From the IMG/VR virus record IMGVR_UViG_2541047502_000029: a stretch of DNA of 25,642 nt; one strand, given 5' to 3'. Shown piece by piece: positions 6,001 to 12,000 of the stretch. Source of the DNA: a virus. Taxonomy: Duplodnaviria; Heunggongvirae; Uroviricota; Caudoviricetes. The position numbers are program-made. Numbering within the stretch: the stretch's first letter is position 1; each line of letters begins with the position of its first letter.

Positions 6001-9000
6001 GCTCTCGAAAACCTTGGTTTGGGAGAAGCGGCAAAACGGGATGTGGGGACAGGGGAAAATCAGATACCGGACATGGCCTCTTTTGCCAGTGGTGATGGAT
6101 GGATGAAATTACCCAACGGGAAAATCCTGCAATATGGTCGTGGTGCGGTTACGCCGACATTATCGACGCAAACAATGAGAATTACATTCAGCATCCCTTT
6201 CTCCAAAAAAGCGGACTGCGCCATGCTTACTCATTCTGGTGATGGCGGTGCGCCTTTAGGCGCTGGGCGAGGGTTCGTGATGACTGCAGAAGGCCCAACG
6301 TTAACCGGCTTTAATTCTGCTTACAGAACGTCATCAACCAGCGACACGGTATCGATGAATTACAGTTGGTGGGCTGTTGGTGAGTAATTTTATTCAGGGT
6401 GATTTATATGAATGAATATGTTTATAGCGCAAGGCATAATGCTTTTTTCCCTGTGGATATGATTGATAAATATAAATCAGAGGGATGGGATTTATCAGAC
6501 GCTAAGGAAGTAAATCAAAATATTATCAGTGAGTTTATGGCTGAACCGCCACAAGGAAAAATCCGTATTGCCGGAGATGATGGGCTGCCTGCGTGGGCAG
6601 ATATTCCTCCACCCACGCATGAAGAACTTATTGAAATTACTGAATCAGAAAGACAGCTACTAATTAACCAGGCCAACGAATACATGAACAGTAAACAATG
6701 GCCCGGTAAAGCCGCTATTGGTCGTCTGAAAGGTGAGGAACTGGCGCAATATAATTTGTGGCTGGATTATCTGGATGCACTGGAGCTGGTTGATACCTCC
6801 AGTGCGCCAGATATTGAATGGCCTACGCCTCCGGCAGTTCAGGCCAGATGACATCCGGCGCGGTGCTGGTATCTGTTGCCGTCACCGCGTCAATGTAATC
6901 CAGCACAGCGTTAAGTCTGGTTGTTTCTGCCTGCGTCGGTTTACGTCCGGCCTGCAATTTCAGTTGAATCAGACTGATGGAAGCCATTGCTGCATCAATC
7001 AGTGACTGGCGCTGTGCTTCTGCCGCTTCTACTGCGGCACCGTGTTGTGCCTCAGTATCTGTCACCCATTTTTCACCATCCCATTTATCGAATGGCGTTA
7101 ACGGGGCGATAGTGGTTGTATTTTCAGGATAATCACCCGGAGCTGTGATTTCTTTGGCGTCTCCCGTTTCGGTGTTATAGACGATTTCACCGCGATGGTC
7201 TGGCACATATTCCCATGAGTTTAAATCCATCGAACGGCAGATAGCATAACCCGCCTTATGTATACCAGGTTCATCCAGACAGGAATATGCAGGGATACCG
7301 ACACCAATGGCAAGATATTCATTTGAAGTAGAAATATATTCCCGAGTTTTACCATCATAGTTATAGACGGTAATATTCCCCGCCTTCGTGGCAATAAGCT
7401 CGCTATTTAATACGGCGTTATCCATTATGCAGCCCTCACGATATAGTTAAATGCAATATTTCGTGGACGGGTTTCACTCCCGCCAGTATTACCGATACTC
7501 CCTCGTGAATGAAGTGTCGGTGATGGGATCAGACTCCCTCCTGTATTTGTGGCATCAAGTCCCCGTCCTTGTGTGTATGTCTTTTTGAAAATCGTAGCCA
7601 GTTCCCATTCATCTTTTGTGTCGTAACCATCATTGGCAACAACAATATGGCGGTGTTTTTCCAGCATCCCTGTCTGAATGCTCAATAAAACACGTCCTGC
7701 ATCAATACCGCGCCCGTCATCCCAGCCACGAATAAACTCACCACGTAAATCAGGCAATTTATTTGTCGGATAAGCCTTTGCCAGTTCCGGGTATTCTTCA
7801 GCAGAAAAAGCCGCACCGTTGCATTTCAGCCAGCCTGTTGGCGGTGTGGCTGAAGGCCATGGAACAGGCACACCAACAGGTAATGCAGAGCCTTCTCCCA
7901 AACCAACGTTTAAGAAAATGCAGAGATTATGGCTAACTGGCATCATCCCCGGTTTTTACTCAGGGGAATGCTCATGCTTATTGGCTATGTCCGCGTATCA
8001 ACAAATAACCAGAATACGGAATTACAGCGTAATGCGCTGGAGTGTGCAGGATGTGAGCTGATTTTTGAAGACAAGATAAGCGGTACAAAGTCCGACAGAC
8101 CAGGACTGAAAAAGCTGCTCAGGACATTATCGGCAGGTGACACGCTGGTGGTCTGGAAACTGGACCGACTGGGGCGCAGTATGCGGCATCTTGTCGTGCT
8201 GGTGGAGGAGTTGCGCGAACGAGGCATCAACTTTCGTAGTCTGACGGATTCAATTGATACCAGTACCCCAATGGGGCGCTTTTTCTTTCATGTGATGGGT
8301 GCCCTGGCTGAAATGGAGCGTGAACTGATTGTTGAACGAACAAAAGCTGGACTGGAAGCAGCTCGCGCACAGGGACGAATTGGTGGACGTCGTCCCAAAC
8401 TTACACCAGAACAATGGGCGCAGGCCGGGCGATTAATTGCATCAGGCGTTCCTCGCCAAAAGGTGGCGATCATCTATGATGTTGGTATATCGACACTGTA
8501 TAAGAAGTTTCCGGTCGGAGATAAATGAAACCGTAGCACGTCGTATGCAAGAAGATCGTGCTGCGGTTTATGCTTATCACTTAAAGACTCAAAAATTAGG
8601 TGAGTAACGGACCGGGGACATAGCTCCTTTTTTTCTTAATTCATCTGGTATTTTTTTTCCAAGATAAAGATTTGCTATTTCAGGTGGGGCTTCTCGACCT
8701 TCAAAACCATAGCGAGAACTTTGTGTTGCCTCAAAGTCCGGATCCTCGTCCCAGTATTTCATCGTAGGGAAATTTTCACGTGTTGATTTGAGCCATTTAT
8801 CAGCAATGAAAACCCCTCGAACGATCCCCCTTACAGTAGCAAGAATGACTTCTGCTTGGCTGGCGCGAGAGACATTAATGCGCCAGCTAAATCGAACCGC
8901 ATCATAAAGCTCTGAATCCTTTGCACTTCTGTTAACGGAAATCATTAATGCTTTATGATGAAATGTTATGGTTTCGGGTTGATATGTTGCTATCAACTCT

Positions 9001-12000
9001 TTGACATGCGCGGCGCCGAATTCATTGCTGCCAGCACCATTCATGATATTCGTTAACCCAGGGTAGGCATCAATAAGTGCTGCTTCGACTTCGTACGCCG
9101 TCTTTTCATCAGTCATTCCGTGTCGATGGATGACATGGATAACCTCAAGTCCTGCTAACCTTATTTCTCTAATTTGCTTTAGCTTGTTGCTCAGTAACTC
9201 GTCATCATCAGTCGCTGCCACTTCACCGCGCATATGGGCAAATACGCGGTTACCTTTGCCTTTCCCTACATAGAAGGTGCTTCCGTCCCTCGGATCAATC
9301 AATCGGTATACATACCAGCCAAGGTGTTCAATTACTCCAGAAGGAAACTCAGTAATATCCATTTTGCAATATCTATGAATTATTCGTGAGACGTATATTA
9401 ATGAACATTGCAAGGGCTCACAACCAGTAGTGTTGAGAAAATCATCGGGGAAATGAGGCTAAGTCTTTGAATTTACATAGTACAAAAAAGATACTTTTCC
9501 TCATAATGTGAATTAATTTTATGTTTCGTTTGATGATTGGACCGGTCTCGAAAACCGGAGTAGGGGCAACTCTACCGGGGGGGCAAATCCCCCTCTCTCC
9601 GCCACTTTATCAATGACTTATCTCCCGACTTCCCGCCTTGCTTTTCCTAAACAGAACAATCGTAGAATATTCTTGAAGGGTTAGATCGTCACTGTTTTCT
9701 GTTCGATACTGTGACATTCAGCACTTGATTCGCTATGGATCTGACAGGAAGGTTTCGAGCGAAAATCTGCAGTTATTCAGTCGTTTTCTTATCGGTCACC
9801 ATTATTCTTTTAGACATTGATCCTACAAAGCTGCCGCAAAGTTGGTGGTGGGAACTGAAGTTGCGTAGAGAAGGGGTCAATACCCGGAGGCAAACATGGG
9901 CTGGCAAAAGTGTAGCGGTATTAGGCGCAGCTATTTAGCCTAGTTATGTTTTATGAAAACTTGATATCATATAAGTGTCTTACTTATTGGCTGTAAATAA
10001 GTTTTTCCTAAGGAATTGTTTCTTGAGTATCATTTGTAACTGTAACGGAATTTATAATCCTTTGCTTTATTGTTACGGTATTTTTTATCACACCCTATTT
10101 TTAGTGGTTTTTTATACTGAAGTTTGGCAAAGTGAACTTTATATACATATACTTCATCCTGGTTTCAGTTAAATTGGGTGGATGATATGGCAACTACATG
10201 TTCAGTTATATTGATTTTGGAGTCCTTTGATGTTTATTTCGGAAAAGAGAGTGTGTTTCTGGAGAGAGGTTCATCTGTACTTGTCGACTCTAGCTCTAGA
10301 GATTTTTTCCTGACATATCCTGAAAGAGTGATAGTGGCGGATTTTGGCGCTGAGTTTATTAGTCGCTATTTGAAAGCTAATAACTTAAGGGATATTTCTG
10401 ATTGTAGGGAATATCCATCTTATTTAAAAATAAACTTTGCTGACTTCAGTTTAATTAAAGGATTAATTAGTTGGGCTAATCACTGTGCTGAATACATAGA
10501 AATTTTTGATGAGTCTATTGCTTTTACATGTCTCTCTGCATTTTCTTCTGAAAAACAATTTGGAGTATTTCTGTTTGGATGTTTGAAAAGCACAGGGGCT
10601 AAAGTTAAAACGATTATTCATACGGATTTATCTGCACCATGGCGTCTTAAGGATATATCATCAAGATTATATCTCAGCGAAAGTTTACTAAAGAGGAAAT
10701 TGAAAGAAGAGGGGGTATCATTCAGTAAGATCATACTTGATGAGAGGATGCAAATGGCTGAATATTTACTCAGCACTCGTTGTTATCCTATTAGTAAAGT
10801 AGCTAAGGTCTGTGGTTATGCCAGTGTCTCATACTTTACTTATGTATTTAGACGTTATTTTGGTGTTTCTCCAAGTCAATACTCTCAGAGGAGTTCAGAA
10901 AGTAAAATTCTTACTCACCAGGGAATCTGATCATTGTTCTTGCCCCCTTATTTCCAGACAGGGGGTGTATCTTAAGTTAACGTTACCCGCTGACGTCGAT
11001 ATTCTCGCGGAGAGCGATAACCCAACGCACTGTGCGGATGGTTTTCATTGTAATGTTCGATCGCCACTGCAAGATTATGCAATGCCGTTCTTACATTCGG
11101 TTTCGGCATGAACGCGATATAGTCTTCCTTCATCGTTTTCACGAACCTTTCTGCAATTCCATTACTCTGAGGACTGCTGATTGCCGTTGTGCAGGGCTCC
11201 AGATTCAACTCTCTGGCGAACTGCCGTGTTTCATGCGCTCTATACGCTGAACCGTTATCTGTCAGCCACTGGATGGACTGTTCCGGTACTTTATCGCCAA
11301 AGCGTTTTTCTATCGCTCCTAACATGACATCCTGCACTGTCGCTTTATCGTAACCTCCCGTGCTTGCGGCCCAGTCTATGGCTTCACGATCGCAACAGTC
11401 CAGGGCGATTCATCTGGGCCAATCCTCGCTCATAACAGGCATTCACTTCAGTCATGGCAGAAAGGTATGCATGCTGGAGAAGTCGTGAAAGAAAAGAAGA
11501 CTGCTGCGCCGTTTGTCGTCACGTTTATCTTCATTGGCTATGCAAGTCGTAATACAAGGTGGGACAAAACTGAGACACATAAGGCCTCGCAATGGCTTGC
11601 AAGGCTTTACATGTTTTGATGTGGTGGGACGTGTGAGCGCAGTGTTGATGGGGTAATGCTTTGAATTAGAAGCGGATTCTTATAATTCGTAATGCGAAGG
11701 TCGTAGGTTCGACTCCTATTATCGGCACCATCTCAACTTCCTCAAACGTCCGTATTAGTCCATAAAATCTCTGATTTATAACATTTTTTATTCTTTTAAG
11801 TCCATAGTAGTCCGTAACCATCCAGTAGAATCCGGTACTGAATGTGTATAGGATTGTGTATATGTTCCTGTTCGGTCTGGATTCCTATACACATGCCTTT
11901 AAACGATATGCAGATTCGCCGCGCTAAGCCTGAAGCTAAAGCCTATACATTTGGAGATGGGCTAGGGTTGTCATTACTTATAGAACCTAATGGAAGCAAG

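What the first reader, a model, noticed from the sequence alone, without database searches (positions are those of the whole stretch)
8529..9420. GIY-YIG nuclease-domain gene in the moron position downstream of the invertase
It is convergent with the invertase gene and sits where Mu carries com/mom and where tailed phages often carry accessory genes. It has a clear GIY-YIG N-terminal motif and an unassigned C-terminal domain. It could be a homing-endonuclease-like protein or a defence/counter-defence nuclease.
Basis: partly seen in the sequence, partly recalled or inferred. Interest (0 to 1): 0.5.

Follow-up and report, generated by a model that had tools for sequence, protein, structure and literature searches.

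The report
Known anti-phage nuclease CMoRE (PD-T4-3)
The gene is an intact copy of CMoRE (PD-T4-3), a bacterial defence enzyme already characterised biochemically and by crystallography, which cuts the chemically modified DNA of T4-like phages; it sits as cargo at the end of an E. coli O157:H7-type prophage, so the finding is real but ordinary.

Summary
A 257-codon ORF lies at window 8589-9362 on the minus strand. It is convergent with the pinE invertase gene and is the last gene before the prophage's right junction. It matches the PADLOC PD-T4-3 model end to end (E 2.4e-140). It differs at only 4 of 257 residues from the crystallised "E. coli O157:H7 CMoRE" (PDB 9U75/9U8D).

[quoted passage not shown] The C-terminal domain senses 5hmC or glucosyl-5hmC, and the N-terminal GIY-YIG domain cuts at CN11/N9G. 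An acidic loop autoinhibits the enzyme, and it gives about 10^5-fold protection against T2, T4 and T6.

All functional residues named in that work are present here. The residues I checked are invariant in 81 homologues from many phyla.

The homing-endonuclease one is not supported.

The link to an invertase is specific to E. coli prophages and is not a family trait. In e14 of K-12 the same slot holds mcrA, another type IV enzyme.

Novelty: already known. Interest: low.

The parts
8589..9362 (-). CMoRE / PD-T4-3 gene, 257 aa plus a TAA stop codon at 8589-8591. [quoted passage not shown]
   Evidence: ORF. RefSeq CDS WP_000355484.1 'LEM-3-like GIY-YIG domain-containing protein'. PADLOC PD-T4-3 E 2.4e-140, profile positions 1-255 of 256. 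PDB 9U75, 253 of 257 residues identical.
9027..9362 (-). [quoted passage not shown] It carries the 'GIYxY-YIG' motif (Y17, Y19, Y31) plus R39, E93 and N105.
   Evidence: Pfam PF22945 over aa 28-110. Residues present and 100% conserved in 81 homologues. Y17, Y19 and Y31 were shown to be essential by mutagenesis in PMC12923530. Assigning R39 and E93 as the catalytic Arg and Glu is my inference from the conserved UvrC-type spacing.
9198..9209 (-). Codons D52-D53-D54-E55: the four consecutive acidic residues of the autoinhibitory lid loop over the active site.
   Evidence: Sequence. In 9U75 the run is DDDD. The 4A mutant of that run is hyperactive, cuts unmodified DNA and is toxic (PMC12923530). 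The window allele has a conservative D-to-E change at position 55.
8592..9005 (-). C-terminal modification-sensing domain, about aa 120-257 (boundary approximate). It includes Y127, whose main-chain oxygen contacts the 5-hydroxyl of 5hmC.
   Evidence: No Pfam or NCBIfam family covers it. Y127 is present and invariant. 5hm-dCTP co-crystal structures 9U8D and 9U7Z (PMC12923530).
8528..8569 (.). Stable hairpin in the 60-bp spacer between the convergent pinE and CMoRE genes. Probably a shared, bidirectional terminator (inferred).
   Evidence: MFE -26 kcal/mol, z -5.05, 0 of 200 shuffles fold as well. Followed by TTT on both strands. The simple terminator scan did not list it, probably because its loop exceeds the scan's 3-8 nt limit. 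Weak partial hit to the 3' hairpin of Rfam CssrB, 24.5 bits against a gathering score of 76.
9363..9560 (-). AT-rich 5' region that travels with the gene. Presumed to hold the native promoter (inferred).
   Evidence: Homology among six different E. coli contexts ends at 9560 in four of them, and in one it starts only at 8526. GC is 31% over 9363-9538. No consensus sigma-70 site passes the scan on the minus strand. The O157:H7 gene with its native promoter conferred defence in BL21 (PMC12923530).
7974..8528 (+). pinE serine invertase. This is the neighbour, not part of the defence system.
   Evidence: Pfam Resolvase 1.2e-51 plus HTH_7 on the 7929-8528 ORF. RefSeq pinE.
9539..9882 (+). Displaced 3' 66 nt of tRNA-Ser (serU) plus 278 bp of the serU-yodB spacer. 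An attR-type remnant that marks the prophage's right boundary (context).
   Evidence: 97% identical to the serU region in nearly all E. coli. K-12 annotation mtfA / tRNA-Ser / yodB. ARAGORN finds no intact tRNA in the window.

Best explanation

Mechanism, as published for an allele that differs at 4 residues:
- The protein forms a tetramer (a dimer of dimers).
- The C-terminal domain binds DNA carrying 5-hydroxymethylcytosine or glucosyl-5hmC.
- Two modified cytosines about 21 bp apart are read by a dimer.
- The N-terminal GIY-YIG domain cuts between them at CN11/N9G, leaving 2-nt 3' overhangs. Cleavage needs Mg2+ or Mn2+.
- An acidic lid loop (D52-E55 here) repels unmodified DNA and so prevents self-cleavage.
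- The lysogen thereby degrades incoming T-even phage DNA directly, without abortive infection. Host DNA has no 5hmC and is spared.

What is shown here: the identity of the gene, its intactness, the presence and conservation of all named functional residues, and its genomic placement. What is inferred: that this particular allele is active, and that it is expressed from the roughly 200-bp 5' region.
For: - Full-length match to the PADLOC PD-T4-3 model, E 2.4e-140.
- 253 of 257 residues identical to PDB 9U75/9U8D, 'E. coli O157:H7 CMoRE'. The crystallised sequence equals the TW14359 allele at the same chromosomal locus.
- Y17, Y19, Y31, R39, E93, N105, R80, V92, L96 and Y127 are present and 100% conserved across 81 sequences from Enterobacterales, Planctomycetota, Acidobacteriota, Actinomycetota and other groups.
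- The acidic run DDDE is present.
- Literature: 5hmC/5ghmC-specific cleavage and binding, about 10^5-fold drop in plating efficiency for T2/T4/T6, resistance of unmodified T4(C), catalytic-residue mutants dead, 4A loop mutant toxic (PMC12923530). A homologue from Capnocytophaga degrades T4 DNA but not T4-GT7 DNA (PMC12366544). Deleting the gene in the native host E. coli NILS69 sensitises it to Tevenvirinae phages (10.1101/2024.12.20.629700). Original discovery as a GIY-YIG defence gene (PMC9519451).
- The gene is intact in 823 of 5426 complete E. coli genomes. In strain TW14359 the annotated stretch upstream of the tail-fibre genes holds only a phage replication-protein fragment, yet the gene is kept there.
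- Cargo signature: GC 43.9% against 56.7% for the tail genes.
Against: - The exact window allele (T51, E55, Q169, N197 in place of A, D, K, H) has not been assayed. Two of the four differences flank or lie in the autoinhibitory loop.
- No consensus sigma-70 promoter and no clear Shine-Dalgarno sequence were found upstream, so expression in this strain is inferred.
- Published assays used plasmid constructs in BL21, not the O157 prophage context.
- The numbering of the catalytic Arg and Glu (R39, E93) is my inference, because the paper's text does not give those numbers.
Confidence: 0.93

Rival explanations
1. It is a free-standing GIY-YIG homing endonuclease (I-TevI/Seg-like) that spreads its own gene by cutting alleles that lack it.
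For: It shares the GIY-YIG catalytic fold. There is a marginal hit to a PHROG annotated 'homing endonuclease' (phrog_314, E 0.0021). Full-length homologues in jumbo phages are annotated 'putative homing nuclease' by their depositors.
Against: No NUMOD, IENR1, zinc-finger or HTH DNA-binding module is detected; the C-terminal half is the CMoRE sensor domain. The protein is 98% identical to an enzyme shown to cleave by base modification without strict sequence specificity. The gene is a stand-alone cargo gene at a prophage end, not inserted in or between conserved target genes. It is 54-60% identical across distant phyla as a chromosomal gene.
Confidence: 0.02
2. The gene is intact, but in this strain it is a silent or functionally altered remnant of a decaying prophage. 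Either it is not expressed, or the four substitutions change its autoinhibition or specificity.
For: The surrounding element looks degraded or mosaic: a displaced serU remnant, IS fragments and a fragmented Lamassu system next door. No consensus promoter was found. T51 and E55 lie at the autoinhibitory loop. The APEC O1 homologue was weak from its own promoter.
Against: The ORF is identical in many O157:H7 and non-O157 genomes. The substitutions are conservative and fall at non-invariant positions. The sister O157:H7 allele worked from its native promoter. The 5' region is co-conserved with the gene in six contexts. Native-host deletion phenotypes exist for the family.
Confidence: 0.04
3. It is a DNA-repair or structure-specific nuclease of the LEM-3/ANKLE1, UvrC or Slx1 type, as the RefSeq and Pfam label suggests.
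Against: Only the catalytic domain matches (aa 28-110). No UvrC, Slx1 or LEM partner domains are present. The gene is accessory (about 15% of E. coli genomes) and prophage-borne. Biochemistry shows dependence on modified cytosine.
Confidence: 0.01

Closest known systems
CMoRE / PD-T4-3 (E. coli ECOR68, O157:H7, APEC O1; PDB 9U75, 9U8D, 9U7U, 9U7Z)
   Same: It is the same protein family and is effectively the same protein: 253 of 257 residues match 9U75, and the architecture, motif, acidic loop and 5hmC-contact residue are the same.
   Different: There are four substitutions (T51A, E55D, Q169K, N197H) relative to the crystallised allele. This allele itself has not been tested.
McrA (EcoKMcrA) of cryptic prophage e14, E. 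coli K-12
   Same: It occupies the same genomic slot: the last gene after pinE and before attR of a prophage with the ymfQ, tail fibre, tfa and pin module. It belongs to the same functional class, type IV modification-dependent restriction.
   Different: By the annotation and my own knowledge it is an HNH nuclease that recognises 5mC/5hmC rather than glucosyl-5hmC. It is co-directional with pinE, whereas CMoRE is convergent. I did not compare the two sequences directly.
PvuRts1I / AbaSI family (own knowledge, not tested here)
   Same: These are type IV enzymes specific for 5hmC/5ghmC that need two modified cytosines and cut at about N11-13/N9-10 with 2-nt 3' overhangs. This is essentially the same cleavage geometry as the published CN11/N9G of CMoRE.
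   Different: They have a Vsr-like/PD-(D/E)XK-type nuclease domain and an SRA-like sensor domain. CMoRE has a GIY-YIG nuclease and a sensor fold with no detected homologues (PMC12923530).
GIY-YIG homing endonucleases (I-TevI, SegA-G) and type II GIY-YIG restriction enzymes (Eco29kI, Hpy188I)
   Same: They share the catalytic GIY-YIG fold and the Tyr/Arg/Glu/Asn chemistry.
   Different: They recognise DNA sequences through dedicated DNA-binding modules, or work with a partner methyltransferase. CMoRE has an extra Tyr (GIYxY-YIG), an acidic lid and a modification sensor.
GmrSD / BrxU type IV enzymes (own knowledge)
   Same: They are single-polypeptide defences against T-even phages with glucosyl-5hmC DNA.
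   Different: They have a DUF262 NTPase plus a DUF1524 HNH-like nuclease and depend on NTP. The folds are unrelated.

Membership tests
CMoRE / PD-T4-3 | Full-length similarity to the family profile and to the characterised members | tested here: met
   PADLOC PDLC04031, E 2.4e-140, profile positions 1-255 of 256. PDB 9U75, E 3.7e-172, 253 of 257 identical. 9U7U, E 1.1e-150.
CMoRE / PD-T4-3 | 'GIYxY-YIG' motif with three tyrosines (Y17, Y19, Y31) | tested here: met
   G15-W-Y17-V-Y19 ... F-Y31-V-G33. All three Tyr residues are present in 81 of 81 homologues.
CMoRE / PD-T4-3 | Conserved catalytic Arg and Glu (plus Asn) of the GIY-YIG active site | tested here: met
   R39, E93 (and E91) and N105 are present and 99-100% conserved. 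The residue numbering is assigned by inference.
CMoRE / PD-T4-3 | Inserted negatively charged autoinhibitory loop with four consecutive acidic residues | tested here: met
   D52-D53-D54-E55. In 9U75 the run is DDDD. Distant homologues have a shorter acidic run, which fits the paper's statement that 'most have' the loop.
CMoRE / PD-T4-3 | C-terminal modification-sensing domain with the 5hmC contact (Y127) and tetramer-interface residues (V92, L96) | tested here: met
   Y127, V92 and L96 are present and invariant in 81 sequences. The C-terminal half aligns without gaps to 9U75.
CMoRE / PD-T4-3 | Single-gene system with no obligatory partner gene | tested here: met
   The neighbours are the convergent pinE and about 800 bp of non-coding or remnant DNA. 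Only 8526-9560 is shared among the E. coli contexts. Neighbours differ in 80 loci from other species.
CMoRE / PD-T4-3 | 5hmC/5ghmC-dependent DNA cleavage and protection against T-even phages | not testable with these tools
   Shown experimentally for the sister O157:H7 allele, the APEC O1 protein and a Capnocytophaga homologue (PMC12923530, PMC12366544). Not shown for this exact allele.
GIY-YIG nuclease superfamily | Profile match above the curated threshold | tested here: met
   PF22945 LEM-3_GIY-YIG scores 54.2 bits against a cut-off of 27. The generic PF01541 is below threshold, 13.9 against 22.6.
GIY-YIG homing endonucleases (I-TevI/Seg) | A sequence-specific DNA-binding module (NUMOD, IENR1, Zn finger or HTH) attached to the nuclease | tested here: not met
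   No such Pfam domain at E <= 0.1. The C-terminal half is the CMoRE sensor domain.
GIY-YIG homing endonucleases (I-TevI/Seg) | Location in an intron or intein, or free-standing between conserved genes whose endonuclease-free alleles carry the target site | tested here: not met
   It lies at the prophage terminus between pinE and an att remnant, among other defence genes.
Invertase-linked cargo (Mu gin-com/mom-like arrangement) | The gene is consistently adjacent to a Pin/Gin-type invertase | tested here: inconclusive
   True in six of the seven E. coli contexts sampled. In AR_0369 an acyltransferase gene replaces pin. Only 1 of 80 loci from other species has a Pin-like gene within 4 kb. It is a lineage-specific placement, not a family feature.

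The most novel reading that the evidence does not exclude
The slot just beyond pinE at the right end of e14-type prophages (those with a Mu-like baseplate) may be a dedicated swap site for modification-dependent (type IV) nucleases.

What I saw in that slot across genomes:
- mcrA in e14.
- CMoRE here.
- CMoRE followed by an Mrr-domain endonuclease in TW10828.
- CMoRE next to a type II restriction-modification pair in AR_0369.
- An uncharacterised 215-aa ORF (WP_001288820.1), convergent with pin and with no Pfam or PADLOC hit, in E. coli isolate 127.

If the pattern holds, that unknown ORF would be a new defence gene. CMoRE in these prophages might also serve to exclude rival phages with hypermodified DNA: a homologue cuts Mu DNA, whose adenines carry the carbamoylmethyl modification (PMC12366544).
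Probability: 0.25. Interest if true: 0.35.

Novelty: already known. Interest (0 to 1): 0.1.

Why it matters
For annotation, RefSeq still calls this protein a 'LEM-3-like GIY-YIG domain-containing protein'. It should be read as CMoRE/PD-T4-3, a type IV restriction enzyme that probably makes E. coli O157:H7-type lysogens refractory to T-even (5hmC/5ghmC) phages. That is relevant to phage biocontrol or therapy against O157:H7.

Nothing here changes what is known about the family. The comparative point, that e14 holds mcrA in the same post-pin slot, is a modest lead for finding further cargo defence genes.

Tried and rejected
- NCBIfam gave no hit.
- ARAGORN found no tRNA. The tRNA-like stretch is only a 66-nt 3' remnant of serU, and Rfam gives only sub-threshold hits there.
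- The consensus promoter/terminator scan found no minus-strand promoter upstream of the gene and no terminator. By eye the best -35/-10 candidates are weak. The promoter is therefore not located.
- A search of the phage collection found no close (>60% identity) copy in any deposited phage genome. It found only homologues of 45% identity or less, the full-length ones in jumbo phages, so no sequenced temperate phage could be named as the source.
- The hypothesis of a conserved invertase linkage across the family was rejected: 1 of 80 loci.
- The homing-endonuclease and repair-nuclease readings were rejected (see rival explanations).
- I did not run structure prediction, fold search or the large protein-database searches. 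A crystal structure of a 98.4%-identical protein exists, and the genome-contig scan already gave 80 diverse homologues for the conservation test.
- The main text of Vassallo et al. does not say which prophage type carried PD-T4-3 in ECOR68.

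
Full report
**1. What is in the sequence**

The window holds an ORF on the minus strand. The ORF listing reports it as 8589-9413 from an upstream TTG. The functional start is the ATG at 9362:
- RefSeq annotates a 774-nt CDS (WP_000355484.1) in genomes that are 100% identical over 8400-9700.
- Residue 1 of the crystallised homologue aligns with this Met.
- Homologues from other phyla align from residues 1-6 onwards.

The product is 257 aa. The gene is convergent with pinE (7974-8528, +; Resolvase plus HTH_7 on the containing ORF).

The spacer contains a strong hairpin at 8528-8569 (dG -26 kcal/mol, z -5.05). It is flanked by short T runs on both strands, so I read it as a shared terminator. 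That is an inference.

**2. Identity**

- Pfam sees only the N-terminal nuclease domain: LEM-3_GIY-YIG, aa 28-110, 54.2 bits against a cut-off of 27. NCBIfam sees nothing.
- The whole protein matches phrog_5356 (E 2e-143) and the PADLOC model for the defence system PD-T4-3 (E 2.4e-140, profile positions 1-255 of 256).
- Against the PDB it matches 9U75/9U8D (E 3.7e-172) and 9U7U/9U7Z (E 1.1e-150) over its full length.
- It differs from 9U75 at four positions: T51A, E55D, Q169K and N197H.
- The 9U75 sequence is identical to the allele of O157:H7 strain TW14359 at the same chromosomal locus. The window allele is the one found in FRIK944, AR_452 and TW10828.

**3. What the family does (from the literature)**

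- PD-T4-3 was found in a functional selection for T4 resistance in the E. coli pangenome, among systems that include 'a GIY-YIG nuclease' (PMC9519451).
- Liu et al. (PMC12923530) renamed it CMoRE. For the O157:H7 protein they showed:
  - About 10^5-fold protection against T2, T4 and T6 from the native promoter.
  - Direct defence, not abortive infection.
  - Mg2+/Mn2+-dependent cleavage and binding of 5hmC and 5ghmC DNA, but not of C or 5mC DNA.
  - Sensitivity of T4(hmC) and resistance of T4(C).
  - Cleavage at CN11/N9G with 2-nt 3' overhangs, requiring two modified sites.
  - A tetrameric assembly.
  - An N-terminal GIY-YIG domain with a 'GIYxY-YIG' motif (Y17, Y19, Y31).
  - A 15-residue acidic loop that autoinhibits the enzyme. 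The 4A mutant is hyperactive and toxic.
  - A C-terminal sensor domain of a fold with no detected homologues, which binds 5hm-dCTP through Y127.
- Rodriguez-Rodriguez et al. (PMC12366544) independently showed modification-dependent cleavage for a 48%-identical homologue. They also saw activity on Mu DNA, which carries carbamoylmethyl-modified adenine.
- Deleting the gene in its native host NILS69 sensitised that strain to Tevenvirinae phages (10.1101/2024.12.20.629700).
- A preprint reports pH-dependent expression in strain IAI46 (10.64898/2025.12.14.694197).

**4. Tests run here**

- *Named residues.* Every residue named in that work is present in the window protein: Y17, Y19, Y31, R80, V92, L96, Y127 and the acidic run D52-D53-D54-E55.
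Eight were Enterobacterales at 82-86% identity. Seventy-two were from Planctomycetota, Acidobacteriota, Actinomycetota, Chloroflexota and other groups at 54-60% identity. I aligned them with the window protein.
  - Y17, V18, Y19, R20, Y31, G33, R39, H43, E93, N105 and Y127 are present in 81 of 81 sequences.
  - Seventy-six positions are at least 97% conserved, spread over both domains.
  - The refutation criterion is not met.
- *Substitutions.* The four substitutions relative to 9U75 fall at positions that are not among the 76 positions that are at least 97% conserved.

**5. Genomic setting**

- The window is collinear with O157:H7 FRIK944.
- Upstream lie myovirus tail and Mu-like baseplate genes: DNA circularisation protein, baseplate assembly proteins, gp46, gp47/J and YmfQ. 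Then come a tail-fibre gene, two opposed tail-fibre-assembly genes and pinE.
- The gene is cargo. GC is 43.9% against 56.7% for the tail module, and its 5' region is 31% GC.
- About 180 bp upstream of its start lies window 9539-9882. This is the 3' 66 nt of tRNA-Ser serU plus 278 bp of the serU-yodB spacer. It is a displaced attR-type remnant, so CMoRE is the terminal gene of the prophage.
- Comparison with six other E. coli contexts shows that homology ends at 9560 in four of them, and that in one it starts only at 8526. The portable unit is therefore about 1 kb: hairpin, gene and roughly 200 bp of 5' region.
- The gene is present in 838 of 5426 complete E. coli genomes, and 823 of them hold at least 80% of it.

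**6. Is the invertase linkage meaningful?**

- In the E. coli contexts sampled the gene sits after pinE. The exception is AR_0369, where an acyltransferase gene replaces pin and a type II restriction-modification pair follows.
- In TW10828 an Mrr_cat-domain endonuclease follows it.
- Outside E. coli, only 1 of 80 loci has a Pin-like gene within 4 kb. The linkage is a property of this prophage lineage's cargo slot, not of the enzyme.
- The slot itself is interesting:
  - In e14 of K-12 and in strain G47-1 it holds mcrA, another type IV enzyme.
  - In isolate 127 it holds an unknown 215-aa ORF convergent with pin, with no Pfam or PADLOC hit.
  - In P2-like prophages pin is embedded in the tail cluster and has no cargo after it.
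- The analogy with Mu's gin-com/mom is positional only. It rests on my own knowledge of the Mu map.

**7. Rival readings**

- *Homing endonuclease.* This is contradicted by the lack of a DNA-binding module, by the genomic position, and by the published modification-dependent, sequence-relaxed cleavage.
- *Repair nuclease (the 'LEM-3-like' label).* The label reflects the catalytic domain only.
- *Silent or altered allele.* This cannot be excluded computationally. No consensus promoter was found, and two substitutions lie at the lid loop. It is nevertheless unlikely, given identical copies in many genomes and co-conservation of the 5' region.

**8. Verdict**

The defence-nuclease interpretation is right and can be made exact. 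The gene is an already characterised system (PD-T4-3/CMoRE) whose near-identical O157:H7 allele has a crystal structure. Novelty: already known. Interest: low (0.1). The only mildly new lead is the recurrent use of the post-pin slot for type IV nucleases, together with the unknown ORF found there in another strain.

Noticed in passing
window 9539-9882: This stretch is the 3' 66 nt of tRNA-Ser (serU) plus 278 bp of the serU-yodB intergenic spacer, about 97% identical to the K-12 serU locus. It has a mutated T-loop and lies about 180 bp upstream of the CMoRE start. It looks like a displaced attR junction, yet in related strains this locus lies next to the pao (yag) genes and not at serU. That implies a past relocation or recombination of the prophage end.
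   Followed up: partly
window 13078-16354 (within the P4-like satellite, about 11842-22978): A Lamassu defence system sits in the cargo region of a P4-like satellite, which also carries an integrase, psu, an ogr/delta-like gene and a primase. The system appears broken. LmuA is split into two ORFs (13078-13494 and 13467-14084). LmuB is split into three (14508-15167, 15198-15788 and 15788-16354). LmuC (14069-14542) is intact. GC is 30.9%.
   Followed up: partly
window 6009-6028 and 7892-7911; segment 6009-7911: These are 20-bp inverted repeats (95% complementary) containing an AAACC..GGTTT core of the Gin/Pin crossover type. They bound a 1.9-kb invertible tail-fibre segment. The segment is in the opposite orientation to that in O157:H7 FRIK944 at 99.9% identity, with the breakpoints inside the repeats. 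Pin has therefore been active recently in this lineage.
   Followed up: yes
phage records H61-H77 (e.g. Serratia phage Moabite NC_048792 6406-7161; Pseudomonas phage OBP NC_016571 158703-159449; Klebsiella phage N1M2): Lytic jumbo phages (250-285 kb) encode full-length CMoRE homologues at 38-45% identity, annotated 'putative homing nuclease', 'endonuclease' or 'hypothetical protein'. They may be weapons against co-infecting phages with modified cytosine.
   Followed up: no
L090 4136-4783 (-) (E. coli isolate 127, NZ_HG994851.1): An uncharacterised 215-aa protein (WP_001288820.1) occupies the same slot as CMoRE. It is convergent with pinE and is the last gene before host DNA. It has no Pfam or PADLOC hit and is a candidate new cargo or defence gene.
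   Followed up: partly
L088 5347-6180 (K-12 e14) and L089 4163-4996: In cryptic prophage e14 the slot after pinE and before attR (icdC) holds mcrA, a type IV restriction enzyme of a different nuclease type (HNH, by annotation and my own knowledge). This parallels CMoRE's position here.
   Followed up: yes
L086 7248-8159 and L087 7178-9854: In other E. coli strains, CMoRE at the prophage end is followed by further restriction genes: an Mrr_cat-domain endonuclease in TW10828, and a cytosine methyltransferase plus a type II endonuclease in AR_0369. Together they form a small defence cluster.
   Followed up: partly
window 8506-8565: The pinE stop region and hairpin match the 3' terminal stem-loop of Rfam CssrB (a Shigella chromosomal sRNA) at 24.5 bits, well below the gathering score of 76. 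I suspect, but did not check, that the match reflects a shared terminator-type hairpin.
   Followed up: no
window 9883-11337: This low-GC stretch (33-35%) holds an AraC-family regulator gene (10178-10930). It is flanked by a short IS630-like fragment (about 9883-9937) and a truncated IS integrase-core pseudogene (10972-11337). It lies between the prophage end and the P4-like integrase gene. Its function and origin were not examined.
   Followed up: no
window 2049-3128: The baseplate assembly gene is an intact 359-codon ORF in the window, but it is annotated as frameshifted in FRIK944. The prophage is therefore less decayed in the window's strain. In TW14359 the annotated stretch just upstream of the tail-fibre genes holds only a phage replication-protein fragment.
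   Followed up: partly
L012-L083 (genome-contig loci): CMoRE homologues in Planctomycetota, Acidobacteriota, Actinomycetota, Chloroflexota, cyanobacteria and other groups are 54-60% identical to the E. coli protein over the full length. That is unusually high conservation across phyla for a defence gene.
   Followed up: partly
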